IMG/VR virus record: IMGVR_UViG_3300026472_000012
Span: 1 to 40,053 of that record
Source of the DNA: a virus
Reading direction: 5' to 3' (one strand)
DNA length: 40,053 nucleotides
In this document: piece after piece, positions 2,300-38,504 of the stretch
Position numbering within the stretch: the stretch's first letter is position 1
How the letters are laid out: every line of letters starts with the position of its first letter
The notes under the pieces: generated by a model
The model's input: the letters and a program-made list of their open reading frames with translations, nothing else
Databases searched by the model: none
What the model was told of the DNA's origin: nothing
Translations under genes and position numbers: made by a program

Positions 2300-3451
2300 T
2301 TAGCGGTTCACATTCACTAAAACATCAACAGAATGAATAGCACCTGCAAGCTTAACTGCGACTTGAATTGGTGTTGCTTTACGTGCTTCACGATCCGCTT
2401 GAGATTGCCCATCAATCGGATTTGAATATACGTAATAGCCTTTTGTTAATGTATCGCCAGTTTTAAGTACACCAAATGGTTCGCCATTCCAAACACCAGG
2501 CGCGACCATACCATTCGTCACGGCTTGCTCTAAAGCATGTTCAAGAACAGAACAATGACGATTCATACCACCTTCTGTTTGCGGTATCTTGGTTGGGCTG
2601 GTGTAGTGCAGATTCCAAAGGGCTGTTTGTAGATAGTTTTGCAACCAATCCAAACCATGACGTTCATCAATAAACGTGCCACTACACATCACGCCCTCTT
2701 GAATAATGGCAGTGTCATTATTGTATTCAGCAAATACGTTGCAGCTCTTTTCCTTGAGAGTAAATGCTTCACTGGTACGCAGATATTCAGCGGCAATGGT
2801 TGGTTCTTGTTTAAATTTAAGCGTAATAGCTGTGTTATTTGCTAAGAAGTTTACGGCAAATGTTCTAGATAACAGTGAAACAACAGCATAAGGCGAATCA
2901 GATGAGTACTGAATCAATGTACGTTCAAACTTACGTTGATTTAGTTTATAAGCAATATCCGAAGGTAAAGCATCACCGTATTTGGGCGTTTTTACCTCTG
3001 GATCTTGTGTTGTAAAACCAACGATTCGATAGGGTACAGACGCTTCAATAAATTCAGAAACGGAGATAATGTCATTATCTGTAGCGATAGGTGCAGCTAC
3101 AGCCAAACCATACCAAGCATTTGAAGCATCAGCACAAGCTTGAACAGCTTCTAAAAGAGTTTCAGGTTGCTCTAGTTCACTTCCTGCCTGTACCCAACGA
3201 CCGATATATACAATTGTTGGACGAGGGTTTTGGGCAAAGAATTTAAGTGCAGCGTTATATTCAGGATCCATAGTCCCAAAGTCTTCAGCAACTTCAGTGA
3301 TGGATGAATAAGGTCGTACTCGTTCAAGATTTGAAATAACAGGTGTCGAGCCTAAAATTAATAATGAGCCAAAACTTCGAGTTTGGGCTGCTAATGGTGT
3401 TAAGGACATTTGAACGTTAACAACCATATCCACAGGTAATGCTGCGGCCAT
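2300..3451 (-). CDS. Tail sheath protein (DUF3383-like, by recollection)
   Basis: 383-aa ORF upstream of the tube gene in the tail module. Confidence 0.7.
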   Translation of the reverse strand: MAAALPVDMVVNVQMSLTPLAAQTRSFGSLLILGSTPVISNLERVRPYSSITEVAEDFGTMDPEYNAALKFFAQNPRPTIVYIGRWVQAGSELEQPETLLEAVQACADASNAWYGLAVAAPIATDNDIISVSEFIEASVPYRIVGFTTQDPEVKTPKYGDALPSDIAYKLNQRKFERTLIQYSSDSPYAVVSLLSRTFAVNFLANNTAITLKFKQEPTIAAEYLRTSEAFTLKEKSCNVFAEYNNDTAIIQEGVMCSGTFIDERHGLDWLQNYLQTALWNLHYTSPTKIPQTEGGMNRHCSVLEHALEQAVTNGMVAPGVWNGEPFGVLKTGDTLTKGYYVYSNPIDGQSQADREARKATPIQVAVKLAGAIHSVDVLVNVNR

Positions 3452-6724: not shown

Positions 6725-6787
6725 ATTTTATTTTCCTTAGACATAAAAAAAGACGCTATTTGCGCCCCAGTTTTATGTGATTTAAGA

Positions 6788-7269: not shown

Positions 7270-8568
7270 TTATTTTCCTTTATTCCAATATGCACGATTT
7301 TTGGCGTTGATATCCGCAATAGAAGGAGCTGAACGGCCAAAGTCTTTAGTCGTAATACCGTGACGAACACCAGCATTATTATTTTGTTGTTTGATTAACT
7401 CAGAAGCACCGATAAAGGCAGCATCTACAGTATGCGCAGGCAGCACATCAAAATTTGTTTGATTTCCAATAAACGGTGCAATAACCTTTTGCCCCTCAGT
7501 GGTTGCATAGGCCTGTTTTAATGCTGTACGTTTGGCACTTAATACAGATTGACCGTTATTCACACTATCGAAAGTTGGTAGTTTAATACCAGGTACCAAT
7601 ACTTCAGCGCGAGAAATCACCTCTTTGAGTGAATCACCTGTATGATTTTGGACACCTTCTTCAGCTAATTTTGCAGCTGCTTCAGCTTTCAAAATATCGT
7701 CTGTGGTTTCATCTTCTTCAGAATCTTCACTTTCGCTCTCTTCAAGTTCATCTGAATCTTTGGTTTTCTTCTTTTCCAAAGCACCAAGACGAGAATCCAT
7801 TGTTTTAAGCATTTTAAGAATTTGACGATTTACTGAATCAGAGGTTTTACTCTTTTCATTTTCTTCGTCATCATCTTCGGTAAATTCATCATCTTCTTGA
7901 GAGGCTTTGGTTTCTTCTAAAGCTTCATCAATAGTACGTTTCGCCCCAAGCAAAGCTTGATACCACGGCGTTTTTTGTTTATTCGTCTGTTTAGACATAA
8001 AACTATCTCCAATAGAGCACCGCGAACCGCAACGCCCTTTATCCACTAATGCAATATGATTAATTACGATATTGCTCTGCACCCCTTTGCCTTTACTGAT
8101 CTCTGTATAATCAGCGTCATAACCAAGAGAAATCTCAACCTTTCCATCTTCTACAGCCTTGATTGTTTCTCGGTCTGTAATCAATAGATCAGCCATCAAA
8201 TAGTCTGAATCAACACCATCACCACGATGTACGTTTTGCCCTGTGCCTTTAGAGAGCTCCTTCCAATTATCGGGAGTTACCCAATCATTAGGATGATCAT
8301 CTGTAACTGGCTTACTCTCAGCACTTGCTATGGTTTTAGGATCAAACAAAATCTCTTCGCCACGCTCAATGATGATCAATCCAGTTTCATCAGCGGTTAC
8401 AGGAACTTCGCCATCGCAATACATCAGTTTACCAATACGTGCGATAGGAACATCACGACAAAGCAAGTATCCTTCTGGTGTTATTTCGCGTGTACGACCG
8501 ATTTGTCCTGTGGTGTAGATATTTGAACGATCAATGGTTTTACTTTCTTTAGGTTTGTTCTTAAACAT
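7270..8568 (-). CDS. Prohead protease/scaffolding protein (DUF2213-type)
   Basis: 432 aa with a long acidic low-complexity segment (EDDEFTEDDDEENEKS...ELEESESEDSEEDETTDD). It lies upstream of the capsid genes. Confidence 0.65.
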   Translation of the reverse strand: MFKNKPKESKTIDRSNIYTTGQIGRTREITPEGYLLCRDVPIARIGKLMYCDGEVPVTADETGLIIIERGEEILFDPKTIASAESKPVTDDHPNDWVTPDNWKELSKGTGQNVHRGDGVDSDYLMADLLITDRETIKAVEDGKVEISLGYDADYTEISKGKGVQSNIVINHIALVDKGRCGSRCSIGDSFMSKQTNKQKTPWYQALLGAKRTIDEALEETKASQEDDEFTEDDDEENEKSKTSDSVNRQILKMLKTMDSRLGALEKKKTKDSDELEESESEDSEEDETTDDILKAEAAAKLAEEGVQNHTGDSLKEVISRAEVLVPGIKLPTFDSVNNGQSVLSAKRTALKQAYATTEGQKVIAPFIGNQTNFDVLPAHTVDAAFIGASELIKQQNNNAGVRHGITTKDFGRSAPSIADINAKNRAYWNKGK

Positions 8569-8590
8569 AAATCACCATTGTTTAGATATT

Positions 8591-8610
8591 AAAAAACCAC
8601 CCGAAGGTGG
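8591..8610 (-). terminator. Rho-independent terminator after the 620-aa paralog
   Basis: On the minus strand: CCACC-TTCG-GGTGG followed by TTTTTT. Confidence 0.75.
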
Positions 8611-8618
8611 TAGTCGTT

Positions 8619-10481
8619 TTAACTTGGCACAGGTATTAAGTAATAACATGAATCAATCACAATCGTTTGTCCGTTATTATTTCTCGTAATCCAATCAATA
8701 CCATTAGGAGGCAAAGTTTTTCCTGCATTTGCATAGGTCATCAATTCTATTCTTGTAGATCTTTTCTGCAACCCATCCATACCTCCAGGTTCATAATCTG
8801 ATCCATCAAACGGCTTGAGAGTTAAATAAAATTCATCTTTAAATTGCTCTTCAGTTTTCATTGGACCTATACAGTCTGTTTCAATAAAATATGCATAATT
8901 AGAATCCCAATCCGTCCATCCCCCATCCCAACGAACATTTACACTATCTGAAGCTGTACTGTCTATTGAAAGAGCTATAGTATTTGATGTGGTTTTTTCT
9001 AGTTGAAATCCTCTGTTGGCTATAAAGTAAGAATCAACATTGTAATATGTGACTTTATAACCTGCTGCCTCAAGTATTGGTTTGTAGTGTCCATAAATTT
9101 GATTTAAAGCATCATTATAATCAGATGGAGTAAAACTAAAGACACCGCCTAAGTTACTTAAAACTTCTCCAGTTACTAAATCAATTTCTTTAAGCAATGT
9201 TGTATTTACAGTTCCATAAGCTAAACCACTAGTGCCTTTATTAACTCCTAAAAAAGTTTGCTTAACTGTTAAATCTTGCTTGATTTCGACTTCGGAAAAC
9301 TCCACGTCTATATCATTACCAATAGAACGAATTAAATCATTTAAATAACGTGATAATGAATAATATTTAGATGAGATATTATTTGGTACTTTTAAAGCAA
9401 GAACATTTGGAACATATCTATACTCATTATCTTTAAGCTCTCGTAATTCACGTTCTAATTCAAACGACCATACTTCGCTATTTGTATCTAAATTAGTAAT
9501 TTTACAAGCAATACATAAAACGTCTGAGTCTTTATAATTGTAGTCAATATTTTTTAAAACTACGGGAGTAACATGTTCTGCTAAGCAAGTATCATCAGCT
9601 TGTGGAGCTAAACAGAATATAAATGAACCATCTTCATCTAGCATAAAAGATTGATTATTAGACCATGTAGCTTGAAGTGGATCAAATTGTGGTTTTGGAG
9701 TTGGTATTAATTTAAAACGATGAGGGACTGAATCTTTATTTTCTAATAACCAAAAACCATCCCAATCAGTATTAATTTTTCTTGATATATCAATTGGAAT
9801 TGCTTGAATAATATCATTGCCATTCACTCTACCCAACTCATAACTGTCCCCATCAAATTCCATAGTCCAATTTATTACTCCATCAAATAAAGGTGCTGGT
9901 TCAAATATAATTTTTGAAGTTGCCCCTTCACATGAAATAATAGAACTAGACTGAGCAGACAAGCACACACCATTTCGATTTGCATCAAATGAAATTACAG
10001 TAGGATTTTCACTAAAAAAAACTTTTTCTAGATTTTGATTATCAGGAATCACTCTATGTTCCAAGCGTACATCTTGATTCGAGTTATTCTTTATAAAAAT
10101 TGAATCCTTCCACTCATATCCACTTGGAGGTGGAAATGGAGGCAAAATTGTGGGACTTGCTTCAATATAATCTGGTGGATTTTTAAATTCGACATCATTA
10201 ATAATAAACTTTTCACTTTCTGGAAATATTGTACTTTCATTTACTTTAATGAGCACTGCACGATGCATTAATACTGTACCTGTTGCTCCAGCACAACTGA
10301 TACTAGGAAGGTTTACACCACAAATACCGACTTCAGTAATCGTATGATGATTTTCACCAATACGCACCCCAATTGAGATTGGTTGAGCACAAGCAAACTG
10401 TGGTTTAATCACCCCGTTTACAGTTTCTAAAAATTTCCAAACACCAAATTGGATAGTGTCTCCAAATTTTAAATCTTTCAC
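8619..10481 (-). CDS. Accessory protein, long paralog (620 aa), unknown function
   Basis: GTG start 5 nt after GAGGAT. The N-terminal ~70 aa closely match the N-terminus of the 10713..11639 product. The gene is AT-rich relative to its neighbours by eye. Confidence 0.85.
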   Translation of the reverse strand: MKDLKFGDTIQFGVWKFLETVNGVIKPQFACAQPISIGVRIGENHHTITEVGICGVNLPSISCAGATGTVLMHRAVLIKVNESTIFPESEKFIINDVEFKNPPDYIEASPTILPPFPPPSGYEWKDSIFIKNNSNQDVRLEHRVIPDNQNLEKVFFSENPTVISFDANRNGVCLSAQSSSIISCEGATSKIIFEPAPLFDGVINWTMEFDGDSYELGRVNGNDIIQAIPIDISRKINTDWDGFWLLENKDSVPHRFKLIPTPKPQFDPLQATWSNNQSFMLDEDGSFIFCLAPQADDTCLAEHVTPVVLKNIDYNYKDSDVLCIACKITNLDTNSEVWSFELERELRELKDNEYRYVPNVLALKVPNNISSKYYSLSRYLNDLIRSIGNDIDVEFSEVEIKQDLTVKQTFLGVNKGTSGLAYGTVNTTLLKEIDLVTGEVLSNLGGVFSFTPSDYNDALNQIYGHYKPILEAAGYKVTYYNVDSYFIANRGFQLEKTTSNTIALSIDSTASDSVNVRWDGGWTDWDSNYAYFIETDCIGPMKTEEQFKDEFYLTLKPFDGSDYEPGGMDGLQKRSTRIELMTYANAGKTLPPNGIDWITRNNNGQTIVIDSCYYLIPVPS

Positions 10482-10633
10482 TTTTGATCCTCAGGTATTG
10501 CTTATCCTAGTTAACTTTGACAGTTATAAATACGCCCAATTGGTAATTTGATTTCATGATTTTCAACTACAATTGCTATGAAATCTTAATAGCAAGCAAC
10601 AATTAAAAAGCTTTAACTCATTTTCTTGAGCTA

Positions 10634-10661
10634 TAAAAAAACCACCTTTAGAGGTGGTTTT
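10634..10661 (-). terminator. Rho-independent (bidirectional-looking) terminator after the 308-aa paralog
   Basis: A7-ACCACC-TTTAGA-GGTGGT-T4. On the minus strand the stem is followed by T7. Confidence 0.75.
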
Positions 10662-10712
10662 ATCAACTTAAATGTGAGTGCTCAAAATTGCATTATTCAA
10701 ATGTGCGTTAAT

Positions 10713-11639
10713 TTAAATGCCTATCAAGGTTGCAGTACCGCATGAATGAGCAACCATTTCGTTAACCACTGCGTTAGGGAATAACTGGTTGTAAATATCA
10801 CCCTCTAACATAGTACGAATAAAAGTAATCGTTATTGGATCGCTAGATAATTCAGCATTTACACCGCTAAGTCTGAATTTACCTGTTTGACCACTATCGT
10901 AACTCCATAAATCAAAGTTTATACCGTTACCACCGCCAGTAGTTGTACTGATATTGATGAAAGGATATAAAGCAATTAGATCATTAATCATCATGCGGAC
11001 TAAAACAGATAACTCAGTCCCTACTGGATAGTCAACTACTTGGAATGTAGCAACTTCATTTACACCATGATTAGGTGCATCAACTTTATACTGAATCGTA
11101 ACTGTTCCAGCGACAGCTAAACCGCCTTCATGCATTTCTAGAGTGTTCGGATCACATTTCTTAGCTAAGCAAAATGTTAAACTACCATCCTCATTTTCCA
11201 TGAATGTGTCATTACCATAGGCATTTGAATAACGAGCACCTATAGTTGGTATTAAGCGTATGCGATGATTATTTGGCGAAAGATTACCAAAGTACATAAA
11301 ACCATCATAATCCGCATAAATTTTATCGCTAAAGTGATTTGTAATGTAGTTTTGCAGTAAGTCTGTTGAGGACGGATAAAAGACTCCGTTTAGCTCCATA
11401 TTCCAATAACCGCCAAAACTTCCAAAATTCATTTTTTCAGATGCTCCAACACAGCTAATATCTGGTGGATTTACACTACAAACACCAACTTCTGTAATTG
11501 TCTGGTGGTCTTCACCGATTCGTACGCCAATTGGTATTGGTTGAGCGCATGCAAAGTGTGGCTTTATAACATCGTCAACATTCACTAAAAATTTCCAAAC
11601 ACCGAATTGAATGGTGTCTTTAAACTTTAACTCTTTCAC
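10713..11639 (-). CDS. Accessory protein, short paralog (308 aa), unknown function
   Basis: Start reassigned to GTG 11639 (VKELKFKDTIQFGVWKF...), behind GAGGAT with the same spacing as its paralog. The track start overlaps the Mu-F gene. Confidence 0.8.
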   Translation of the reverse strand: MKELKFKDTIQFGVWKFLVNVDDVIKPHFACAQPIPIGVRIGEDHQTITEVGVCSVNPPDISCVGASEKMNFGSFGGYWNMELNGVFYPSSTDLLQNYITNHFSDKIYADYDGFMYFGNLSPNNHRIRLIPTIGARYSNAYGNDTFMENEDGSLTFCLAKKCDPNTLEMHEGGLAVAGTVTIQYKVDAPNHGVNEVATFQVVDYPVGTELSVLVRMMINDLIALYPFINISTTTGGGNGINFDLWSYDSGQTGKFRLSGVNAELSSDPITITFIRTMLEGDIYNQLFPNAVVNEMVAHSCGTATLIGI

Positions 11640-11641
11640 TT

Positions 11642-12382
11642 TTAATCCTCTGGTATTACTGGTTCTGGGTAACAACGGCAGTTATAAATGCATCCAGCAT
11701 GAGCGCGTATGCCACGCTTACTATTGACAATTGGTGGTGAATCCCAGTGGATAAATATGCCATTTAATAAATGATGATCATGTCTAACATCACCATCGCC
11801 AGAATCTCTCCAGATATAACCTTGACTACCGATAGATTTAGCTCTGGCTTGAGTGAACACAGTGCTTGCTTTAGATGTTTCTGTTCTTGCAATCGTATTC
11901 GCTCTGGATTTCGTCACATGCCCAGTGGCCATAATTAATCCTGCAATCTCTTCGGAACGAATGCCTTCGCTAATTGCACGACTTGCCAAATCCTGTACAC
12001 GATTTGCAGCATTGAGTGGCAGCGACTTAATTAGCGAAACTTGTTCTGATAATAGTTGCTGATAAACGACACCAATATCCGTATTACGAATTTGATCCCG
12101 TAAACCTTTCGACATGTCTTTTGCATAAATCATCCATGTCTTTTCATCACGAAGTGCTACATCTGTTAATACTCGACCTGCAGCACTGAATGCCCATTCA
12201 TCTAATGTTTCTGCATAACGACGTAAGGCAGTAATTATTGATGGATAAACATCTTGGTCATAAACATCGAAGCCTTTTATTATTGAATCAATGTAAGTTG
12301 CAATCTGACGTAACTGCCGACCATATTTGATTTCAACTTTACGTGCCCGCATTGGTGTATGGCGGTTTTGCATACTATCCAC
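11642..12382 (-). CDS. Head morphogenesis protein (Mu F / SPP1 gp7 family)
   Basis: C-terminal motif GYIWRDSGDGDVRHDHHLLNG...CIYNCRCYPEPV is typical of the family. It lies downstream of the portal. Confidence 0.8.
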   Translation of the reverse strand: MDSMQNRHTPMRARKVEIKYGRQLRQIATYIDSIIKGFDVYDQDVYPSIITALRRYAETLDEWAFSAAGRVLTDVALRDEKTWMIYAKDMSKGLRDQIRNTDIGVVYQQLLSEQVSLIKSLPLNAANRVQDLASRAISEGIRSEEIAGLIMATGHVTKSRANTIARTETSKASTVFTQARAKSIGSQGYIWRDSGDGDVRHDHHLLNGIFIHWDSPPIVNSKRGIRAHAGCIYNCRCYPEPVIPED

Positions 12383-12469
12383 CGATTAAAAAACCTAATG
12401 AAATGAATACTTAAAGAGTTTTGGACTTGAATCCTTCTTTTGTAGATGGATCTGTACAGCCAAAGCTCT

Positions 12470-12497
12470 TTGTTATTTTTAAAGTTTGAGCTAAAAT
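12470..12497 (+). promoter_or_regulatory. Candidate sigma70 promoter, antisense to the late operon
   Basis: TTGTTA (12470..12475), 16-nt spacer, TAAAAT (12492..12497). Confidence 0.4.
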
Positions 12498-12503
12498 AGT
12501 CAG

Positions 12504-12725
12504 TGCATGGGCGAGGACTTCCCGATGGCTTGATTATTCAATGCACAGGGTCCGTGCCGTTGGGTCAGTTTCAAACTGGTCTGCTTCCGCAAAGGTAACG
12601 CCTTGGGAAGCCTAAAGAATGAAGGACGCCGCCCCTAACAGGTCATATGATACTGAGTAGGATAAAAGAATCATGGTAACAGTGAAGTCTTTATTAGAAG
12701 CCCAATTTATGGGCTTTTATTTTTT
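12504..12725 (+). ncRNA. Candidate ~220-nt structured small RNA in the portal/Mu-F intergenic gap
   Basis: No ORF of 60 aa or more on either strand across 12383..12716. The segment is GC-rich with nested and alternative helices. It has a promoter-like element upstream and a + strand intrinsic terminator at its end. Confidence 0.35.
12698..12725 (+). terminator. Plus-strand intrinsic terminator abutting the portal stop codon
   Basis: AAGCCCA-ATTTA-TGGGCTT followed by TTTATTTTTT on the + strand. On the - strand the stem is followed by CTAATAAAG, with no U-tract. Confidence 0.6.
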
Positions 12726-14702
12726 CTGCAATCCACCTTTATTTTTGTTCATTTTTTCATTTTTCTGATTTAAACGAATACCCTCAAGTTGATGCTCTGA
12801 TTTAAAATGTGCTGATTCAAAATCATAAACTCTTCTCACATCACTCCATCTCAAACAAACTGTAAAATACTGTTTATTAATCATTTCTTTTGCAATCAAT
12901 AAATCATTTCCCTTACTAAGAAGATGTGTACGAGGATGCTGAATCGTTGGAATAATCCTATCTAACATTTTTGCACGCTCTTGGCTTAATACTCGTTCTT
13001 CATTCCAATGACTTGCACCTGGTGGTTTTTCAGAATAGGCATGATTCGTTTCACCAAAATTGACTTCAATTGGTGTAGGCTCAGTTTTTTTATTTGAATA
13101 CACACCTAACGCATAAGTCTTGCCTTTGTAGTGAGTATCCCAATAATTTTGGGCTTCAGCCATTGTTGAAATAGTTTCAGATGAAGGAAGACTTTCAGGT
13201 GCCGGTAAGACATTACGTCCACTTTTACCACCATTTGCACTGGACATTGGGTGGATTGGAGCAAACCCAAGATTTAAAGCATTCTTACCAGATCGCCCAG
13301 TTTCGCTAAATTGTCCATTTTCATCACGTGGATGATCTTCCTCTATCCAAGTTCCAGCATCCACTGTGTTTTCAGAATTAGGCGCAGGTGGTTTGTCATC
13401 TGCCTGTTCAATCTCGATATTTGTAATACTGGACCAAATACCAGTAATCTCACTTGATTGACGTAACTCTTTAAGCGCAGTTTGTTCAGTCACAATACCA
13501 TTTTCAAAAGCACTCATGACTGTTGAAGTCACAGCGCTGGCAATAGATGCTTTTTTCTCATCATCCAACTGCCATAGCGATGCGAAATCAAACTTAAATG
13601 ATTTAGGCAATTCACAGCCCAACTCAGATAAGCAGACAACTTGTAATAACGTTTGCAAAGGTGTTCTTAAACGGCGTTCTTGTTGCTGATTGATATTGTC
13701 GTAATAGTTACTTAAATCACTTTCACCTGTTGAGTTCATACCTGCAGGTGATTGACCAAATAAACGCACTAATGGGATTTGCACAGCACCAGAAATCTGC
13801 TGACCAAATTGCAAAAGCACATTATCCAAACCTGTGAAGCTATATTGATGTGTTTCAAATGAATCACTCGAATCCATTAAAGTTAAACCTTCATTGGATT
13901 GGAATTGACGAATTTGATTGATTTGCTTTAATAACGCTTCATAAACTGCACCACCTTTGGCGATGATTTCACGCAATTTATCAACTTTATAAGTACGTAA
14001 ATGTGCCTTATAAACCAATTGACCTGCACCCAATGTCGCACTATCAAAAATAGTCAAACGATCAATGAGCCGCTCAATAACTGACTGTCCCCAAAGGTTC
14101 TCTGATATTGACTGCCAATATGGTAAATCAACCCCATCAATACGAATGATGCGTGAGTGATGAATACGTTGATTGCAGAAACCCACAGCATCAGAAATCA
14201 CATCATAGTATTTTGGCTTGCCATAATGCGGACCATACTCTGTCACTAAATCTTGTAAGCTTGGCACAACCATCCAACGGTCCAAGACCATCACACCTTT
14301 AAATGCACCTTTAGCAATCGTTTTTGTATTAAGTGGTGTTTCAGATCTTTGACCGTCAATCAACATAACTGCAAGACAACCACCATATAAACGTCCCCAT
14401 TTAATGGTGTTACACAGTTTGTCCCAAATTTCTAAACGATCCATGGCTTGGTTGATGACTTCAACATCTTCAGGGTTATCAAAGCCACGAATATTTAACC
14501 CTTCACGGGTCATATCTTCAGCAACAACATCTACAACTTGACCAACAACCCAACTTGAACGATACATTGCTTCAAGTTTCAGACGATCACGACTTACAAA
14601 GTCAAACCCATACTGTGATTGATCATGCTGATTACCAGAACCAAGCCCAACACGAGCAGCAAAATTTTGAAAACTGTCAATTGTAGATTTTAGAATGCTC
14701 AT
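12717..14702 (-). CDS. Portal protein (DUF1073-type) with a long C-terminal extension
   Basis: 661 aa directly downstream of TerL. The last ~230 aa begin with a low-complexity linker and the motif EEDHPRDENGQF. Confidence 0.8.
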   Translation of the reverse strand: MSILKSTIDSFQNFAARVGLGSGNQHDQSQYGFDFVSRDRLKLEAMYRSSWVVGQVVDVVAEDMTREGLNIRGFDNPEDVEVINQAMDRLEIWDKLCNTIKWGRLYGGCLAVMLIDGQRSETPLNTKTIAKGAFKGVMVLDRWMVVPSLQDLVTEYGPHYGKPKYYDVISDAVGFCNQRIHHSRIIRIDGVDLPYWQSISENLWGQSVIERLIDRLTIFDSATLGAGQLVYKAHLRTYKVDKLREIIAKGGAVYEALLKQINQIRQFQSNEGLTLMDSSDSFETHQYSFTGLDNVLLQFGQQISGAVQIPLVRLFGQSPAGMNSTGESDLSNYYDNINQQQERRLRTPLQTLLQVVCLSELGCELPKSFKFDFASLWQLDDEKKASIASAVTSTVMSAFENGIVTEQTALKELRQSSEITGIWSSITNIEIEQADDKPPAPNSENTVDAGTWIEEDHPRDENGQFSETGRSGKNALNLGFAPIHPMSSANGGKSGRNVLPAPESLPSSETISTMAEAQNYWDTHYKGKTYALGVYSNKKTEPTPIEVNFGETNHAYSEKPPGASHWNEERVLSQERAKMLDRIIPTIQHPRTHLLSKGNDLLIAKEMINKQYFTVCLRWSDVRRVYDFESAHFKSEHQLEGIRLNQKNEKMNKNKGGLQKK

Positions 14703-14714: not shown

Positions 14715-16373
14715 TTAAAGCTTGCTCCAAATATCGAGAGCAGAAACTAAAGGGCAATAACAAATCATCACAGCGTCTGCTCGGTTAGGAGAAATTGCGC
14801 CATCAGGTTGTTTATTGACTAAGATTTTTCCAACACCATTTTTCATGTATGTTGGCTGTGATAATTCCATGACAAGCTGTGTCATTTCGTTTGGATCAAT
14901 ATCCTGACTGGATAGAGAAATGAGCATGTCTGAGTCATACTCCTGACCATTCAATGCTCTATAGGTGTTTTGAAATCTAAGACGTAAGTACCACCAAGAC
15001 TGTGCTTTAAGGTTGGCAAAGAAATCTTTATTCAAGCGTTTCTCAACAATCTCACCTTCAGGATCATGTACAGAGGCAGAACCTCGGAATGGTTCAACAT
15101 TGACCTCATCCCAGCCTTTCTCACGTTGATTTTCATTAATCACACGCGCATCGCCTCGAACACCCGCACCAAGACCATCTGCATCGTAATAAAGTGTTAA
15201 GTATTTATTTTCTAGGCAAATATCCATTGCCTTTTGTGTGGTGAAGAAAATATCATCGCCACGCCCCGACCAAGTGCTTAAATGATCTAAAACAATGCCA
15301 TGACGACCTGCCATCGAGTTTTTATCACGACCTTCATCGGCAACATCTAATCCAGAAATTCTGTCGCCTGTAGGTTCTATGTTTAATTTTAAATGAGCAT
15401 CAATTGCTGCTTGCACCCAAACACTTGGAATCAATACACCTTCAATCGAAGCGGCATAGTTAATATCTATTTCCTGCGCAAGTATTACAGGGTCAAGTGT
15501 GGCAAGCTGTTTCTCATACCATGGATGAATCTCTTTACCACGTAACTCAACCATCCAATTCTTATCGGGGTTCAGTCGCCATGGCATAGTGAATACAGAA
15601 AATCGCCCACTAAATCGGTCTTGATAAAATCGATTACCAATCCCATTTGGTGTAGAACCTTTGATCACAACATTGGTATTCTGAGAGATTGCTGCATCCG
15701 CTGCTTCAGGGTTTGCAACAAATCCCCATTCATCAAGTAAGTAAATTGTTGTACGACCACCGCGTCCAATATTGTCGCCTGCTTCACCCGTAAGCGTTGC
15801 ACCATTATCAGGATTAATAATTCTTAAGTAGTTGTCATGTTCACGGCGATTATAATTTTTAGGTTTCATCCATTCAGGTAGCTTATTGAGCATATCTCTG
15901 AATTTATGAAACAAAGTTTTAGGATCACCTTTCTTATCAACTAAATCTTCTTTACGACTTCCAACACCAGCAGCGAAACCTTCAACGAATAACCAATGAT
16001 GCAGAAAATACCCAAGAACAACATAGGACATCCCCTCATCACGAGATTTTTCAATCACACCACCTGTTTGTGTGTCTTCTCTCTCTTGTAACCACGTCAC
16101 CAACTCTGCTTGTTTAGGACGTAGAACAAATGGAAGATTTGCAGGTAATCCAAAAGCCATTCCTCGAGGATCGTAAGTCCATACCCAATGATTAAACCAA
16201 TGCACAGGATCATGACGACATTTTTCAAGTTCAGCTTGTTGTGCTACTTCAGATTGCTCTATTACAGCCTTGTAGTAATAGCGTCGAGTCATTTCAGAAA
16301 TGGTTGCAGGTAAACGGACATCTATCGTCCATGCTTTAATCAGTGGTGTAATTTCATCAATGGCATAACTCAT
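14715..16373 (-). CDS. terL: Terminase large subunit
   Basis: 552 aa, in an ATGA overlap with the TerS stop and upstream of the portal. Size and position are typical. Confidence 0.85.
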   Translation of the reverse strand: MSYAIDEITPLIKAWTIDVRLPATISEMTRRYYYKAVIEQSEVAQQAELEKCRHDPVHWFNHWVWTYDPRGMAFGLPANLPFVLRPKQAELVTWLQEREDTQTGGVIEKSRDEGMSYVVLGYFLHHWLFVEGFAAGVGSRKEDLVDKKGDPKTLFHKFRDMLNKLPEWMKPKNYNRREHDNYLRIINPDNGATLTGEAGDNIGRGGRTTIYLLDEWGFVANPEAADAAISQNTNVVIKGSTPNGIGNRFYQDRFSGRFSVFTMPWRLNPDKNWMVELRGKEIHPWYEKQLATLDPVILAQEIDINYAASIEGVLIPSVWVQAAIDAHLKLNIEPTGDRISGLDVADEGRDKNSMAGRHGIVLDHLSTWSGRGDDIFFTTQKAMDICLENKYLTLYYDADGLGAGVRGDARVINENQREKGWDEVNVEPFRGSASVHDPEGEIVEKRLNKDFFANLKAQSWWYLRLRFQNTYRALNGQEYDSDMLISLSSQDIDPNEMTQLVMELSQPTYMKNGVGKILVNKQPDGAISPNRADAVMICYCPLVSALDIWSKL

Positions 16374-16888
16374 AGCTTACCGTTAATTGCTAATCGTGAT
16401 AGCTGTTCTGGTGTGAGATTTTCTAATTCTGTTAGTGAAAGTGGCGTATTCACATGTTGTATCGGACCACCTTCAGCCCCCGTATGTTCATGTTTCACTT
16501 TTTCACTAAATAATCCGAGATGCTTTCCAATCAATTCATTCGCTTTAATCGCACTGCTAGAATCAAATTTATATTCACCTGTTGAGTTTCCTTCACGGTC
16601 TTTGACTTCCTCCGCCTGCATACATCTTTCAGCAATTGTTTTTAAATTGTTTAAAACATAATAAGCATCGATTCCGAGTTCTTTGGCTCGTTCTTCTTGT
16701 AGAAACTTAATCCTTGCTTGAACTAATGGTTGTTTAAAAGCTCGCCAACCTGCAACTCGATCTGAATATCCCGCTTCTTTAGAAGCTTTATTTACAACAT
16801 TAGAAATGAGATATGCTTGGGCTAAATGTTCCCAACGATCATTTTCTAAAGGTTCACTCCCCGCTGGAAGTTCGATTTGTTCTTCCAT
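16370..16888 (-). CDS. terS: Terminase small subunit (Terminase_2/P27-like)
   Basis: 172 aa with the segment SKEAGYS...AGWRAFKQPLVQARI...AIKANELIGKHLGLF, typical of this TerS family. Confidence 0.75.
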   Translation of the reverse strand: MEEQIELPAGSEPLENDRWEHLAQAYLISNVVNKASKEAGYSDRVAGWRAFKQPLVQARIKFLQEERAKELGIDAYYVLNNLKTIAERCMQAEEVKDREGNSTGEYKFDSSSAIKANELIGKHLGLFSEKVKHEHTGAEGGPIQHVNTPLSLTELENLTPEQLSRLAINGKL

Positions 16889-17054
16889 CTTTTAAACCTG
16901 TTTCAATATTATTTATAAATTCGCTAATCTGTTTAACTCGCATTTCACACTGATTCTTAAATGCCCACGTTGAATTAAGATGATTAAGTGAGAGTAAGCG
17001 TGCTTTATCTTGTTCGAGTAGTTTTAGATTCTTTTGCGCTTCAACCCTATTCAT
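16854..17054 (-). CDS. Small coiled-coil protein, first ORF of the late operon
   Basis: 66 aa. The ATG is preceded by GAGGAAAG, and the 3' end overlaps terS by 35 nt. Confidence 0.5.
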   Translation of the reverse strand: MNRVEAQKNLKLLEQDKARLLSLNHLNSTWAFKNQCEMRVKQISEFINNIETGLKDGRTNRTSSGE

Positions 17055-17084
17055 CCCACTTTCCTCTAGGCATTAAAAAAACCC

Positions 17085-17168
17085 TGTCAAATTAATGTCA
17101 GAGTTTTTGTCAAAACATTTTTATTTAAAATCATCTCTTTAAAAGATAACTTTGAATAAAAATGTCAA
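17085..17168. repeat. Phased TGTCA(A/G) repeats upstream of the late genes
   Basis: TGTCAA at 17085, TGTCAG at 17096 and TGTCAA at 17108 (spacings of 11 and 12 nt), plus TGTCAA at 17163. Confidence 0.6.
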
Positions 17169-17182
17169 AGATTTTGGCAAAT

Positions 17183-17209
17183 AAAAAAAGCCCATCTTTT
17201 TGATGAGCT
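17183..17209 (-). terminator. Strong intrinsic terminator between the late promoter and the late genes (tR'-like)
   Basis: Minus strand: AGCTCATC-AAAAA-GATGGGCT (one mismatch) followed by TTTTTTT. Confidence 0.75.
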
Positions 17210-17252
17210 TTAATCTGTAGTGGATTACCATAACTTCGTCCACTATAGCTGA

Positions 17253-17281
17253 AATATGCCATATTGCGTTTAAACGGTCAA
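17253..17281 (-). promoter_or_regulatory. Candidate late promoter (PR'-like) downstream of the Q gene
   Basis: Minus strand: TTGACC (17281..17276), 17-nt spacer, CATATT (17258..17253). It lies ~45 nt upstream of the terminator. Confidence 0.45.
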
Positions 17282-17285
17282 TACC

Positions 17286-17483
17286 CTAATTGGAGTACAA
17301 AACAAGAACTTCAAAAGGATAATCTGTTTGTTTTTTTTCATTTGCAAATTCAGACGCAATATTCACAATCTTTTCAATTTTTACATTGATATTATGACGA
17401 TCAGAGTATTCTAACCATTTGTTAATTTGTTCTGATAATCCTTCAGAGTTATAGGCACTAAATGTTCTTGTACGTTGAGTCAT
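17286..17483 (-). CDS. Hypothetical small protein
   Basis: 65-aa ORF packed directly after the Q gene. Confidence 0.5.
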   Translation of the reverse strand: MTQRTRTFSAYNSEGLSEQINKWLEYSDRHNINVKIEKIVNIASEFANEKKQTDYPFEVLVLYSN

Positions 17484-17485
17484 AT

Positions 17486-17920
17486 TTACACCATTTTCAA
17501 AAAGTTATATTTACCAAGTAGATAAAATCTAGCACATCCAATTAAAATATTCACCTGCCCTTTAGACTGTTTTGTGATCTCAGCCACTGCACTAAGACTA
17601 CGATTTTCAACCTTATGCTTAACTAAACACATCACTGCGTACTTTGCTTGATAATCAATTGAATTGGAGTTGAACACGCTTCTCAGCAATGCCTGTACCT
17701 GCTCTGCCTCAAAGTCACTAATCTCACAACGGATATAACACTTCGAGTTACGTGGCGTTTTATCTGCTTCACGAATCAACCAATAAATCTGATTAACATG
17801 TAGACCATCAGGCAATTCACCGCCTTTCAAACGAGCGGTTTCACACCAAGCACCAAATTGCTCAAGCCATCCATCAATTGTGTATTTAGACCAATCCATC
17901 ACTCTCACCGCTACGTTCAT
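17486..17920 (-). CDS. Late-gene antiterminator (Q-type)
   Basis: 144 aa. The N-terminal DGWLEQFGAWC resembles the LERWGAW signature of Q proteins. It is the last regulatory gene before the promoter/terminator/late operon. Confidence 0.6.
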   Translation of the reverse strand: MNVAVRVMDWSKYTIDGWLEQFGAWCETARLKGGELPDGLHVNQIYWLIREADKTPRNSKCYIRCEISDFEAEQVQALLRSVFNSNSIDYQAKYAVMCLVKHKVENRSLSAVAEITKQSKGQVNILIGCARFYLLGKYNFLKMV

Positions 17921-22856: not shown

Positions 22857-23348
22857 ATGGGTGGTAATAGGATATTCATTGATTCAGATGATGGAAAAAA
22901 AATATTGGAAATGCCAAAGTACTTTGATTCACCAGTTACTATGGCAAGAGATATAAATAAATATTCATTCCATCATTTTTCTGGTGCTCCAGTTTATGAG
23001 TTATCAACTGATCTAAATATTGTTGGATTAAGTATATTTTTGCGAACTAATATTGCTCCAGACTCAATGAAGCACAGTTTTGGGTTGATGCAAAAAGTAG
23101 GAAATAATAAAAAATGGATATATGATTTATGTATTTATCCTGAACACCAAAAATCACATGTAGATAAAATGAAACGTGAGGTTTTCTATGGTCCACATGT
23201 GCATTGCCTTGATAATGCTTATGAAATAAAGTTAAGTTATGGAATTGATGAGTGGGATAAATGGTTTCATTTTTTTGCGAAAAACATTAATTTGCAGGTT
23301 AGGTCAAGTGATATAATGGGACCTCTTGCAGGGGAGTTGCCACTATGA
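22857..23348 (+). CDS. ORFan protein A of the immunity-region cassette (possibly DUF6978-like, weak recollection)
   Basis: ATG 22857 lies 6 nt after GGAG; the track start at 22845 is TTG. It has a His-rich C-terminal motif, IYPEHQKSHVDK...FYGPHVH, and overlaps the next gene by ATGA. Confidence 0.6.
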   Translation: MGGNRIFIDSDDGKKILEMPKYFDSPVTMARDINKYSFHHFSGAPVYELSTDLNIVGLSIFLRTNIAPDSMKHSFGLMQKVGNNKKWIYDLCIYPEHQKSHVDKMKREVFYGPHVHCLDNAYEIKLSYGIDEWDKWFHFFAKNINLQVRSSDIMGPLAGELPL

Positions 23349-24055
23349 CTATGCATCTTTCAGATACAGTCTTGAATGCTTTTATCCAAAAATTTTCTGA
23401 TCAGGAGAATTCTTGTGGCTTCACTCTACCTTTAATATTTCCAAATGGATCACCAGCAGTCGTCTATGCTCGTAAGGACACGAAAGATAACATAATTCTA
23501 AGTGATTATGGATTAAATGTCCGTCACTTCGATGAGTCTGTTGGTGTTATGGATTTTGATGCTATTGATAAGATTAAGTATTTTTGTAAATCTTATGAAT
23601 CTATATCAATGCAAAGTGGTTGCTTGATTGCTGTATCATCAATGAAGCAATTAGACTTTACTGTAATTGAATATACAGAACTGTTAAGTAAGTTAATTAA
23701 CTATCAATATAAATCTAGATCACATCAAGCAATTGATGAAATTTTAGATTCAATCAGAGTTGTTTTGGAAAAAAAGTTTTCATCGATAGAGGTTAGCCCA
23801 AAGTTGGTTGGAAGATCAGGCGAGAAATACCCATTCAACTTCTCACATAACAACACGTTTATTGATTATATTCAAGCAGATAAGAATAAAACAAATAATC
23901 AGTTGAGAAAAATGATAGATACTCAAAACTTAAATACAAATGTGTCATTCAATATTATTATTGATGATCTTGAGAATGATAAATATAAATCTGAACAAAC
24001 TATTCTCTCTGATTATGCTGTAGTCCAACCTTTGTCAAAATTTTTAGCTATTTAA
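23345..24055 (+). CDS. ORFan protein B of the immunity-region cassette (DUF1828/DUF1829-like architecture, by recollection)
   Basis: 236 aa, translationally coupled to protein A. N-terminal FTLPLIFPNGSPAVVYARKDTKDNIILSDYG and C-terminal VGRSGEKYPFNFS recall the DUF1828 + DUF1829 arrangement. Confidence 0.6.
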   Translation: MTMHLSDTVLNAFIQKFSDQENSCGFTLPLIFPNGSPAVVYARKDTKDNIILSDYGLNVRHFDESVGVMDFDAIDKIKYFCKSYESISMQSGCLIAVSSMKQLDFTVIEYTELLSKLINYQYKSRSHQAIDEILDSIRVVLEKKFSSIEVSPKLVGRSGEKYPFNFSHNNTFIDYIQADKNKTNNQLRKMIDTQNLNTNVSFNIIIDDLENDKYKSEQTILSDYAVVQPLSKFLAI

Positions 24056-24075
24056 TAATTTAGTTGAACAAGAAA

Positions 24076-24100
24076 AACCCAACCCTGTGTGGGTTTTCTT
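24076..24100 (+). terminator. Intrinsic terminator after the cassette
   Basis: AACCCA-ACCCTGTG-TGGGTT followed by TTCTTTC. Confidence 0.65.
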
Positions 24101-24139
24101 TCAACTCACATCAACAAAAACCCAAGAAGAATCTATCTT

Positions 24140-24466
24140 ATGGAAACCGTATCATTTTTATGTCTATTAACCCTTTCTATATTCGGTTGCGATAAACCAG
24201 AGCAAATTTCACCTGAGCGTGAAAAACTTATTGAAAAATATCAAGAAGTTGATTTAAAAATGACAATGTATCTTGGAACTCTAGCAGGACCTTCTACGCC
24301 CTTAGAAGAACGCAAAAAAGTTATTTGTGAGGAATTCCCTGTTACCTATGAACAAGAATACCTTCCAATTTATCTAAAGCTGTCTGATCCAACAGATGTT
24401 GATACAAGTTCGGATCTTCTAAAAACAATTGAATCTTATAAAGCTAGATACAATATTCAGTGCTAA
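24140..24466 (+). CDS. Small lipoprotein (moron; candidate superinfection exclusion factor)
   Basis: Start ATG 24140 gives METVSFLCLLTLSIFGC, a signal peptide with a lipobox-like IFGC. The gene is bounded by two near-identical terminators. Confidence 0.6.
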   Translation: METVSFLCLLTLSIFGCDKPEQISPEREKLIEKYQEVDLKMTMYLGTLAGPSTPLEERKKVICEEFPVTYEQEYLPIYLKLSDPTDVDTSSDLLKTIESYKARYNIQC

Positions 24467-24486
24467 CACCAAATTATCAAAAATTT

Positions 24487-24512
24487 AACCCACCCAGTGT
24501 GGGTTTTCTTTT
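24487..24512 (+). terminator. Intrinsic terminator after the lipoprotein gene
   Basis: AACCCAC-CCAGT-GTGGGTT followed by TTCTTTTG. The sequence closely resembles the terminator at 24076. Confidence 0.7.
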
Positions 24513-27395: not shown

Positions 27396-27565
27396 AATGG
27401 TACTCTATGACGCAAGTAGCGAGTGAATTAGGTGTGTGTCTAAATACTTTCAAAAAATACTATTTAGAGAAGTATCCACCTGATCAGGAATTTGGAGTTC
27501 AAAAGAAATATACAGCTTCTACTTTGCTAAGGATGAAAAAAGAAATATTAAAGGAAGGCGCTTAA
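27392..27565 (+). CDS. xis: Excisionase / AlpA-like HTH protein
   Basis: ATG 27392 follows AGGAG (MKWYSMTQVASELGVCLNTFKKY). It is convergent with and adjacent to the integrase. Confidence 0.6.
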   Translation: MKWYSMTQVASELGVCLNTFKKYYLEKYPPDQEFGVQKKYTASTLLRMKKEILKEGA

Positions 27566-34577: not shown

Positions 34578-34601
34578 AAAAAAACCACGCTTTCACGTGG
34601 T
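34578..34601 (-). terminator. Intra-operon terminator-like hairpin between the spike and wedge genes
   Basis: Minus strand: ACCACG-TGAAAG-CGTGGT followed by TTTTTTT. Confidence 0.6.
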
Positions 34602-34617
34602 CTCCTGTATCTGAGGG

Positions 34618-37161: not shown

Positions 37162-37177
37162 ACTTTTCTCCAGGTAA

Positions 37178-37199
37178 TAAAAAACCCACCGAAGTGGGC
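37178..37199 (-). terminator. Intrinsic terminator after the DUF4282-like membrane gene
   Basis: Minus strand: CCCAC-TTCG-GTGGG followed by TTTTTTATT. Confidence 0.7.
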
Positions 37200-37249
37200 T
37201 TGTGGGCTGTATGAGTGATATGAAAATCAAGGCTACTAGGGTGCTTTTC

Positions 37250-38465: not shown

Positions 38466-38504
38466 AAAAACATATCATAGAGTCATTCTAAAAAGGATTC
38501 CAAA

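What the first reader, a model, noticed from the sequence alone, without database searches (positions are those of the whole stretch)
8619..11660. Two AT-rich paralogous genes with a shared ~70-aa N-terminal domain inserted in the head-morphogenesis module
Two genes, of 620 and 308 aa, sit between the Mu-F-like gene and the protease/scaffold gene. Their N-termini are near-identical: KDLKFGDTIQFGVWKFLETVNGVIKPQFACAQPISIGVRIGENHHTITEVGICGVNLPSISCAGATG against KELKFKDTIQFGVWKFLVNVDDVIKPHFACAQPIPIGVRIGEDHQTITEVGVCSVNPPDISCVGAS. A second conserved block is HRFKLIPT...FMLDEDGSFIFCLA against HRIRLIPT...FMENEDGSLTFCLA. Their C-termini are unrelated. The duplication includes the RBS and GTG start (GAGGAT-N5-GTG; about 200 bp of DNA similarity, 10285..10500 against 11445..11660). 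Each gene ends in its own strong terminator (8591, 10634). These are not standard head genes. One hypothesis is that the shared N-domain is a capsid-targeting or prohead-protease-processed module that loads variable cargo into the virion, as with T4 internal proteins. Alternatives are capsid decoration proteins or lysogen-expressed morons.
Basis: partly seen in the sequence, partly recalled or inferred. Interest (0 to 1): 0.7.

Follow-up and report, generated by a model that had tools for sequence, protein, structure and literature searches.

The report
Swappable adhesin-like cassettes behind phage Mu-F gene
Two accessory genes in the head-gene cluster of an Acinetobacter-type temperate phage share a rare 60-residue N-terminal domain followed by interchangeable cysteine-bracketed modules also found on tail proteins of other phages, so they most likely display variable binding domains on the virus particle rather than being standard head parts.

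Summary
Two minus-strand genes, A (8619-10481, 620 aa) and B (10713-11639, 308 aa), lie between a short Mu-F gene and the DUF2213 scaffold/protease gene. They share a 60-aa N-domain (76% identity; dN/dS 0.09) and a second homologous block. That block is one copy of an undescribed ~100-127-aa beta domain with two invariant cysteines; A has two copies and B one. The duplication includes a decayed Mu-F 3' end, the RBS and the terminator. The N-domain has 9 cluster representatives among 1.84 billion proteins. It is always at residue 1, and in every locus examined it lies in the slot after Mu-F, the first copy immediately after it. Against a 92-99% identical A. guillouiae prophage, identity collapses at codon ~65 of both genes and returns at each terminator, so the payload is exchanged as a cassette. 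The same payload modules occur on a P22-type tail hub, a baseplate wedge protein, sheath proteins and a tail-fibre-slot protein. Close isolated relatives lack N-domain genes in this slot. Best reading (about 0.5): accessory, late-expressed, virion-displayed modular adhesins with a lineage-specific anchor. Internal cargo (about 0.2) is not excluded. Virion presence is untested. This is a new variant of a known kind.

The parts
11642..12382 (-). Short Mu-F-like minor head protein gene (246 aa). Its last codons (CCA GAG GAT TAA) supply the RBS of gene B.
   Evidence: PF04233 E 2.4e-14 and phrog_324 E 5e-69. The junction was read.
11460..11639 (-). Gene B N-domain (aa 1-60). The GTG start lies 2 nt after the Mu-F stop.
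   Evidence: The N-domain HMM hits only A and B in the window.
11163..11459 (-). Gene B Cys-bracketed unit (aa 61-159, ISCVGA...TFCLA).
   Evidence: Unit HMM domain E 6.5e-36. AF2 pLDDT 80-91. Alignment A2.
10713..11162 (-). Gene B C-terminal tip domain (aa 160-308) plus stop. It is shared with the C-termini of P0003, P0006, P0022 and P0035.
   Evidence: BLASTP E 1e-30 to 2e-25. Two invariant Cys, CxPT...HSCG.
10630..10661 (-). Terminator 1: hairpin AAACCACCUC/GGUGGUUU plus a T-run, after gene B.
   Evidence: -12.5 kcal/mol, z -4.3. It lies in a block 92% identical to L003 and is similar to the single slot terminator of A785.1.
10482..10629 (-). Leader of gene A. The proximal ~55-60 nt are a decayed copy of the Mu-F 3' end plus the RBS (ATACCTGAGGATCAAAAGTG).
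   Evidence: 42/60 identical. No minus-strand promoter-like site in this interval.
10302..10481 (-). Gene A N-domain (aa 1-60).
   Evidence: dN/dS against B is 0.09.
9957..10301 (-). Gene A unit 1 (aa 61-175, the 115-aa 'PPxGYxW...NNSN' subtype).
   Evidence: Unit HMM domain E 3.6e-27. AF2 pLDDT 85-96.
9606..9938 (-). Gene A unit 2 (aa 182-292).
   Evidence: Unit HMM domain E 9.5e-34. It is 68% identical in DNA to the unit of gene 1 in L003.
8619..9605 (-). Gene A C-terminal region (aa 293-620) plus stop. It is shared with P0013 and with the C-terminus of the gp10-like fusion P0014. Fold not predicted.
   Evidence: BLASTP 56-59% identity, E about 1e-130. pLDDT below 50. Four conserved Cys.
8590..8611 (-). 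Terminator 2 (ACCACC-UUCG-GGUGGU plus a T-run), immediately upstream of the DUF2213 gene. It is ancestral to the slot.
   Evidence: -9.4 kcal/mol. The homologous terminator is present in A785.1, which lacks N-domain genes.
7270..8568 (-). DUF2213/Pa193_gp24-type scaffold/protease gene, the downstream border of the slot.
   Evidence: PF09979 E 2.8e-49 and phrog_1961/phrog_530. 98.8% identical to L003 from 8612 onward.

Best explanation
A and B are accessory, late-expressed, modular proteins that are most likely displayed on the outside of the virion.

The proposed division of labour is as follows. The 57-60-aa N-domain is a lineage-specific docking module for a partner encoded in the E217/Pa193-like head module. 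Capsid, cement protein, or the portal/neck region are favoured by gene position, but the site is unknown. The middle holds one or two Cys-bracketed beta-sandwich-like units that act as spacer or binding beads. The C-terminal tip is a variable binding domain.

Shown: the anatomy, the strict placement in the Mu-F/protease slot, dispensability of the genes in relatives, strong purifying selection on both N-domain copies, and cassette exchange of everything between the ISCxGA junction and the terminator.

Inferred: attachment to the virion, external exposure, and adhesion to host or environmental surface glycans or proteins as the function.

Inferred evolutionary origin: an ancestral arrangement of Mu-F, N-domain gene, terminator and protease was duplicated from the Mu-F 3' end through the terminator, giving two tandem display slots.
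For: (1) Architecture. There are three module classes, each also found elsewhere.

(2) The units and tips recur on structural proteins that are exposed on tails:
- a P22-type gp10 hub, residues 1-409 plus 3 units;
- Phage_Wedge1/DUF2612 plus 2 units, next to a Gp10_C gene;
- tail-sheath N-termini plus a unit, in the sheath position of a Mu-like prophage;
- a 672-aa protein in the tail-fibre slot after Mu gp47/gp48 and a tail-fibre N-terminal gene, which ends in B's tip domain.

(3) Other payloads behind the N-domain are binding-type modules, such as BspA LRR_5 at E 8e-27. A collagen-repeat, tail-fibre-like gene shares the slot in L003.

(4) All modules carry paired, conserved Cys at their start and end. 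Cys content is 1.8-1.95% against 0.83% in the other structural ORFs. This is expected for disulfide-stapled extracellular domains.

(5) The N-domain has 9 cluster representatives in 1.84e9 proteins. In the eight strong matches it begins at residue 1 or 2. In all six loci examined (the window, L001, L003, L010, L011 and L012) it lies in the slot after Mu-F, and the first copy is immediately after Mu-F. It diverges in step with the head genes, while the payloads do not.

(6) Recombination breakpoints fall at codon ~65 in both genes against a 92-99% identical prophage. This matches conserved-anchor receptor-binding proteins.

(7) B is translationally coupled to the late gene Mu-F.

(8) Architectural precedent: T5 pb10 has a small N-terminal capsid-binding domain plus an exposed Ig-like domain (PMC5292684).
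Against: There are no virion proteomics or structures for any family member, so presence on particles is unproven.

The N-domain and A's tip were not foldable (pLDDT below 50). The units have no significant fold match, so a binding function is inferred only from context.

The gene position beside Mu-F, an internal portal-associated protein in SPP1 (PMC5576092), would equally suit an internal protein.

No trimerisation motifs typical of fibres were seen.

Two of the fusion homologs (the gp10 split with a 67-aa remnant, and the sheath fragments) could be disrupted genes in defective prophages rather than functional display proteins.
Confidence: 0.5

Rival explanations
1. Internal cargo or ejection proteins. 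The N-domain binds Mu-F, portal or scaffold inside the prohead, so that variable payloads are packaged and injected with the DNA. This would be a non-covalent, 'split' version of Mu-F C-terminal extensions or of T4 internal proteins.
For: The first N-domain gene is strictly adjacent to, and translationally coupled with, Mu-F. The Mu-F here is a 'short' form, whereas phrog_324 profiles extend about 300 aa further, and Mu-F proteins elsewhere carry polymorphic C-terminal extensions (PMC5576092). A conserved N-module with hypervariable remainder mirrors the T4 IP locus (PMC3012670). The N-domain is unstructured in isolation in AF2, as expected if it folds onto a partner.
Against: The payload modules are shared with external tail proteins. 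No toxin, enzyme, anti-defence or defence family matches. There is no small immunity-like ORF in the window slot. The N-domain is 57-60 aa with conserved Cys, unlike a short cleaved CTS. Cys-bracketed domains of 100-330 aa, if disulfide-closed, would be hard to thread through a tail channel (inference). There is no slippery heptamer for a Mu-F-B fusion (sequence read).
Confidence: 0.2
2. Moron-type or lysis-released accessory proteins that are not part of the particle. They would be expressed from the prophage or late in infection and act on the cell or on the environment, for example as released lectin-like factors or decoys.
For: They are inserted between two genes that are closer together in relatives. 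A has lower GC (0.33 against 0.40 in the flanks). Each gene is followed by a terminator. The slot also hosts unrelated small genes in A785.1 and L003, so it is an accessory-gene hot spot.
Against: No sigma-70-like promoter was found on the coding strand upstream of A. B has no intergenic space at all and uses the Mu-F 3' end as its RBS. The slot terminator is ancestral rather than brought by the insert, and a further terminator lies between the cement and capsid genes, so terminators are a general feature of this late operon. There is no signal peptide or membrane segment at the N-terminus (sequence). The strong co-inheritance of the N-domain with this head module is unexplained by a moron model.
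Confidence: 0.15
3. Auxiliary tail or baseplate fibres. The N-domain docks on the tail rather than the head, and the gene position in the head module is incidental.
For: All other carriers of the units and tips are tail proteins. The phage has only one recognisable tail-fibre gene, 29869-31170, so extra receptor-binding proteins would be plausible.
Against: The N-domain shows no similarity to any other protein of the window, including the tail-fibre and baseplate proteins. Its linkage is to Mu-F, not to tail genes, in 6 of 6 loci.
Confidence: 0.12

Closest known systems
Capsid decoration proteins with a small anchor plus exposed Ig-like domain(s): T5 pb10 and T4 Hoc (PMC5292684, PMC7602432)
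   Same: Non-essential accessory proteins. A small dedicated particle-binding domain (pb10 NTD, residues 1-77) is followed by solvent-exposed beta-sandwich domain(s) arranged as beads on a string. The anchor is conserved within the lineage.
   Different: No sequence or significant fold similarity. The pb10 anchor is alpha-helical, whereas the N-domain is predicted (at low confidence) to be beta or unstructured. Here the exposed part is exchanged as cassettes and there are two tandem paralogs. Capsid binding is untested.
Receptor-binding proteins with a conserved N-terminal particle-binding domain and a swapped distal part, e.g. P22/Sf6/HK620-type tailspikes (own knowledge)
   Same: A sharp recombination breakpoint at the anchor/payload boundary between otherwise near-identical phages. 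Distal modules are shared with tail-fibre-slot and baseplate proteins.
   Different: The genes are encoded in the head module directly after Mu-F. There is no beta-helix, depolymerase or trimerisation signature. The payload consists of Cys-bracketed globular units.
Promiscuous Ig-like domains appended to phage structural proteins (Fraser et al. 2006, own knowledge; see also PMC13370021 for modular Ig-like phage adhesins)
   Same: One small beta domain family is appended or inserted into many different virion proteins (hub, wedge, sheath, fibre-slot proteins) across unrelated phage types infecting one host genus.
   Different: The unit is not a recognised Ig, FN3 or BIG family: no Pfam hit, and the only PHROG matches are to families of unknown function (phrog_5283 and phrog_14345). 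It has two invariant terminal Cys. So far it has been seen only in Acinetobacter-associated sequences.
T4 internal proteins with a capsid-targeting sequence (PMC3012670)
   Same: A conserved N-terminal module with a hypervariable remainder, encoded in a plastic locus.
   Different: The T4 CTS is a short, protease-removed peptide that targets the scaffolding core. Here the module is a 57-60-aa domain, and the payloads resemble external adhesin modules rather than anti-restriction proteins.
MuF polymorphic toxins (PMC5576092)
   Same: A polymorphic C-terminal region associated with the Mu-F position in temperate phages.
   Different: There is no covalent fusion (stop codon, separate GTG), no toxin domain, and no immunity-like ORF in the window.

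Membership tests
T4-type internal proteins (CTS cargo) | A short (about 10-20 aa) N-terminal capsid-targeting sequence removed by the prohead protease | tested here: not met
   The shared module is 57-60 aa with 29 invariant positions, including 2 Cys. Cleavage itself is not testable here.
T4-type internal proteins (CTS cargo) | Protein located inside the filled capsid and injected with the DNA | not testable with these tools
   Requires virion fractionation and mass spectrometry.
MuF polymorphic toxins | MuF domain covalently fused to a variable C-terminal extension | tested here: not met
   Mu-F is 246 aa and ends at a TAA. B starts at its own GTG 2 nt later in another frame, and there is no slippery heptamer in the 34-nt overlap of open frames.
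MuF polymorphic toxins | A recognisable toxin domain, usually followed by a small immunity ORF | tested here: not met
   No Pfam, NCBIfam or PADLOC hit. No ORF of at least 50 aa lies between B and A or between A and the protease gene.
Hoc/pb10-like decoration proteins | Ig-like (or other recognised) exposed domain | tested here: inconclusive
   The units are confidently predicted and beta-rich (pLDDT 80-96). Foldseek gives only weak matches (E at least 0.05) to tandem Ig-like adhesins and flagellin outer domains.
Hoc/pb10-like decoration proteins | Dispensable for head assembly | tested here: met
   Close relatives with the same head module lack N-domain genes in the slot: A785.1, Bordetella IFTN9, E. 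coli 611R5 and L008.
Hoc/pb10-like decoration proteins | Binds the outside of the mature capsid through a dedicated domain | not testable with these tools
   The N-domain is a candidate anchor only by position and conservation. AF2 confidence is about 40.
Conserved-anchor receptor-binding proteins (tailspike/tail-fibre type) | A conserved N-terminal anchor with a recombination breakpoint at its end | tested here: met
   Identity is 92-96% up to codon ~65 of both genes, then about 40-50%, against L003.
Conserved-anchor receptor-binding proteins (tailspike/tail-fibre type) | Distal modules shared with bona fide tail-fibre or baseplate proteins | tested here: met
   B's tip matches the C-terminus of P0022 in a Mu-like tail-fibre slot. 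The units occur on Phage_Wedge1, gp10 hub and sheath proteins.
Conserved-anchor receptor-binding proteins (tailspike/tail-fibre type) | Encoded in the tail module and attached to the tail | tested here: not met
   The genes lie between Mu-F and the scaffold/protease gene in 6 of 6 loci. Attachment site is unknown.
Morons | An autonomous unit (own promoter and terminator) inserted between conserved genes, with deviant composition | tested here: inconclusive
   Insertion and the low GC of A are met. No promoter-like site was found on the coding strand. B is coupled to Mu-F. The terminator is ancestral to the slot.

The most novel reading that the evidence does not exclude
The N-domain is a non-covalent loading handle for the Mu-F/portal complex or the scaffold. 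The twin cassettes would then form a 'split' polymorphic effector system, in which interchangeable Cys-bracketed payloads are packaged in the head and delivered with the DNA. This would make Mu-F a general cargo adaptor, which would give a function to the long-enigmatic Mu-F family.
Probability: 0.15. Interest if true: 0.8.

Novelty: new variant of a known kind. Interest (0 to 1): 0.55.

Why it matters
If A and B are displayed on the particle, this locus is a compact, naturally modular display system. It combines a 60-aa anchor with a defined junction (ISCxGA) and a terminator-bounded cassette that nature swaps between nearly identical phages. That would point to a second host-range or adhesion determinant outside the tail module in Acinetobacter phages, which is relevant to phage therapy and to capsid-display engineering.

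The analysis also defines two undescribed domain families. One is the N-domain. The other is the Cys-bracketed unit, which spreads across tail hub, wedge, sheath and fibre-slot proteins.

If the proteins turn out to be internal, the locus would give a direct handle on what Mu-F-type proteins do.

Tried and rejected
- **Mu-F-B fusion by frameshift:** B's frame is open 34 nt into Mu-F, but no X XXY YYZ slippery site is present and relatives use a 4-nt stop/start overlap. Rejected.
- **Known families:** Pfam, PHROGs, NCBIfam and PADLOC give nothing for A or B except phrog_5283 and phrog_14345, both of unknown function.
- **Isolated phages:** megablast and tblastn against 50,697 phage genomes gave no match for A or B.
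- **Unit profile through the word-indexed protein search:** this returned only one 99-aa fragment and was unproductive.
- **N-domain in other collections:** no confirmed locus in GTDB species representatives or IMG/VR. The metagenome scan gave one short contig.
- **Fold searches:** PDB twice and BFVD once gave no significant interpretable match. PDB sequence searches for all four module types gave nothing.
- **WG-repeat similarity:** the N-domain's weak match to a WG-repeat protein (P0036, E 2.9e-4) was judged motif-level only.
- **Portal C-terminal extension:** a PBECR3 nuclease domain, present in the L008 homolog, was not detected in the window portal.
- **RNA elements:** none found by Rfam or tRNA scans.
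- **P0024 context:** the protein is not on record for a context look-up.
- **N-domain remnant in A785.1:** none found in the slot.
- **Disulfide geometry:** it could not be measured because model coordinates are not exposed.

Full report
**Setting**

The window is a complete 40,053-bp contig of a temperate myovirus. It encodes:
- an integrase (27562-28707);
- a tail sheath (2300-3451);
- baseplate proteins (33082-36250);
- one tail-fibre gene (29869-31170);
- a large terminase (14715-16373).

The head module is of the E217/Pa193/XM1 type. Its gene order is portal (PF06381), Mu-F (PF04233, only 246 aa), then the two genes in question, then DUF2213/Pa193_gp24 scaffold/protease, cement protein (PF23982/PF22758) and major capsid protein (PF09950). 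Homologs come from Acinetobacter guillouiae and A. bereziniae and from metagenomes. The closest isolated phage is Acinetobacter phage A785.1, whose Mu-F is 65% identical.

**Check of the observation**

- Genes A (8619-10481, 620 aa) and B (10713-11639, 308 aa) share 76% identity over their first 67 residues (E 2e-31).
- A second block, A 182-303 against B 61-170, is 38% identical (E 2e-15).
- The C-termini are unrelated.
- The RBS and GTG start are duplicated, and both terminators fold well (-9.4 and -12.5 kcal/mol).

Three refinements matter.
1. The DNA similarity continues about 55 nt upstream of A's GTG. That stretch is a decayed copy of the Mu-F 3' end (42/60 identical).
2. The N-domain pair is old and constrained: dS is about 1.4, dN is 0.13 and dN/dS is 0.09.
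3. The terminator just before the protease gene also exists in A785.1, which has no N-domain gene. The terminator after B resembles it.

The duplicated unit therefore ran from the Mu-F 3' end through the N-domain gene to the terminator.

**Anatomy**

The "second conserved block" is one copy of a repeat domain. From 28 homologs I extracted 47 units of 97-127 aa. Each begins with I-S-C-x-G-A and ends with F-C-L-[AS]. All subtypes align with invariant C3, C97 and L98, and near-invariant I1, G5, A6, N59, R66 and N83.
- Protein A is N-domain (1-60), unit 1 (61-175), unit 2 (182-292) and a 328-aa tip.
- Protein B is N-domain (1-60), one unit (61-159) and a 149-aa tip.

AlphaFold2 folds the units confidently as beta-rich domains. 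pLDDT is 80-91 in B, and 85-96 and 70-88 for the two units of A. It does not fold the N-domain or A's tip. Foldseek finds no significant PDB match. The weak hits are to tandem Ig-like adhesins, lambda gpV and flagellin outer domains. BFVD gives one hit to an uncharacterised protein. No module matches Pfam, NCBIfam, PADLOC or any PDB sequence. The only PHROG hits are to families of unknown function.

Every module is bracketed by conserved cysteines:
- N-domain: C31 and C54;
- unit: C63 and C157;
- B tip: C162 and C300, invariant in 5 of 5 relatives;
- A tip: four Cys conserved in 3 of 3 relatives.

Cys content is 1.8-1.95% in A and B, against 0.83% in the other structural ORFs.

**The N-domain is rare and positionally fixed**

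An exhaustive HMMER search of 1.84 billion cluster representatives found nine proteins. In the eight strong matches the domain begins at residue 1 or 2. The domain is absent from GTDB species representatives and from IMG/VR.

I examined six loci with upstream DNA: the window, L001, L003, L010, L011 and L012. In each, the first N-domain gene immediately follows the Mu-F gene of an E217-like head module. The stop and start codons overlap or lie within a few nucleotides of each other.

Some phages carry one N-domain gene (L011, L012). The window and the A. guillouiae prophage each carry two, and the two N-domain subtypes appear in the same order in both.

Relatives with the same head module lack N-domain genes in the slot. 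These are L008, A785.1, Bordetella IFTN9 and E. coli 611R5. The genes are therefore accessory.

**Cassette exchange**

Against the A. guillouiae prophage (L001/L003), DNA identity by block is:
- 93% in the portal gene;
- 96% through Mu-F and N-domain 1 up to window position 11442 (codon 66);
- at background level through cassette 1;
- 92% from terminator 1 through the leader and N-domain 2 to position 10285 (codon 65);
- at background level again through cassette 2;
- 98.8% from terminator 2 (position 8612) through the protease, cement and capsid genes.

A's unit 2 is 68% identical in DNA to the unit of the first gene of the other phage. Units therefore move between the two slots.

Behind the N-domain, other phages carry BspA-type LRRs (P0007), two different units (P0032) or other beta-rich regions.

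**What the payload says about location**

The same units and tips are attached to proteins that sit on the outside of tails:
- a P22-type gp10 tail hub, residues 1-409 followed by three units, with a 67-aa gp10 remnant encoded separately downstream;
- a Phage_Wedge1/DUF2612 baseplate protein plus two units, next to a Gp10_C gene;
- tail-sheath N-termini plus a unit, in the sheath position of a Mu-like prophage;
- a 672-aa protein in the tail-fibre slot of a Mu-like prophage, which ends in B's tip domain.

A's tip ends a gp10-like fusion protein. In the sister prophage the slot also holds a collagen-repeat protein that hits tail-fibre PHROGs.

Together with the paired cysteines, this points to surface-exposed binding modules. 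It does not point to enzymes, toxins or anti-defence proteins destined for the cytoplasm.

**Mechanism proposed**

B is translated by coupling to the late gene Mu-F. A is probably expressed by read-through of terminator 1, since no promoter-like site precedes it. The N-domain would dock the protein onto a partner from the co-inherited head module, and the units and tip would project outward and bind host or environmental ligands.

The closest architectural precedents are T5 pb10, which has an N-terminal capsid-binding domain plus an exposed Ig-like domain (PMC5292684), and T4 Hoc. The evolutionary behaviour resembles tailspikes that have a conserved particle-binding N-domain. In the related phage Pa193, several virion proteins encoded near the head genes remain unplaced in the cryo-EM maps (PMC11456595). 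Unassigned head-proximal components are therefore plausible in this lineage.

I put this reading at about 0.5. The steps "is in the virion", "is external" and "binds something" are all inferred.

**Rivals**

- Internal cargo loaded through Mu-F, portal or scaffold remains possible (about 0.2). Mu-F adjacency, and the precedents of MuF polymorphic toxins (PMC5576092) and the T4 CTS proteins (PMC3012670), favour it. The tail-type payloads, the absence of toxin and immunity features, the size of the N-domain and the Cys-stapled design count against it.
- A moron or released-factor reading (about 0.15) fits the low GC of A and the hot-spot nature of the slot. It does not fit the coupling to Mu-F, the missing promoter, or the ancestral terminator.
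- Docking on the tail rather than the head (about 0.12) is a variant of the main reading.

**Novelty**

The general principle is known: accessory, modular, anchor-plus-binding-domain virion proteins with recombinational swapping. What is new is:
- the anchor family;
- the Cys-bracketed unit family and its spread over four kinds of tail proteins;
- the location immediately after Mu-F;
- the tandem, terminator-bounded twin-cassette organisation.

I rate it a new variant of a known kind, with interest 0.55.

Noticed in passing
L009 7001-9906 (A. bereziniae P22-like prophage): The gp10 'packaged DNA stabilization' gene carries three Cys-bracketed units after residue 409. The last ~67 aa of gp10 (also PF11134) are encoded as a separate downstream ORF, so the unit cassette appears to have been inserted into and split a tail-hub gene.
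   Followed up: partly
window 12383-12716: A 334-nt gap between the portal and Mu-F genes has no ORF longer than 31 aa and no Rfam hit. The Mu-F-proximal part (up to 12564) is 96% conserved in the A. guillouiae prophage, while 12565-12735 does not align. It may hold a regulatory or RNA element.
   Followed up: partly
window 12717-13400 (portal aa ~435-661): The portal protein has a ~200-aa C-terminal extension beyond the PF06381 domain with no Pfam match. The portal of the related phage in L008 carries a PBECR3 nuclease domain, so portal-fused internal effectors exist in this lineage.
   Followed up: partly
L013 4244-4531 (Acinetobacter phage A785.1, OR192057.1): The unannotated 289-nt Mu-F/DUF2213 gap contains a small ORF resembling YodC/DUF2158 (MSIKAGDVVQLNSGGYAMTV...), judged by eye only. 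It appears frameshifted. The gap also holds the same terminator as the window, so the slot is a general accessory-gene hot spot.
   Followed up: partly
window 6750-6768 (minus strand): Another terminator-like hairpin with a T-run lies between the cement-protein and major-capsid genes. Intrinsic terminators inside this late operon seem to be a general feature, perhaps for attenuation or antitermination control.
   Followed up: no
window 16500-17500, 23000-24500, 37000-38500: Further low-GC islands (0.31-0.33 against about 0.40) resemble the one over gene A. They are possibly other horizontally acquired accessory genes.
   Followed up: no
P0002, P0009, P0010 C-termini; P0002, P0008, P0022 N-termini: Two more short conserved terminal modules travel with the units. 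One is a C-terminal tail, 'ETHYLSSEIN..D.ILAEDLSFISFE'. The other is a 37-aa N-terminus, 'MIPFxKIPRGLRVPLFFGE', which is used in the Mu-like tail-fibre slot and is probably an alternative anchor.
   Followed up: no
L006 (78.9-kb contig with Rep3 replication gene and PAAR gene): A unit-plus-B-type-tip protein (P0003) with a different 98-aa N-terminus is encoded after a GH19 lysozyme-like gene, on a contig that looks plasmid-like or like a phage-plasmid.
   Followed up: no
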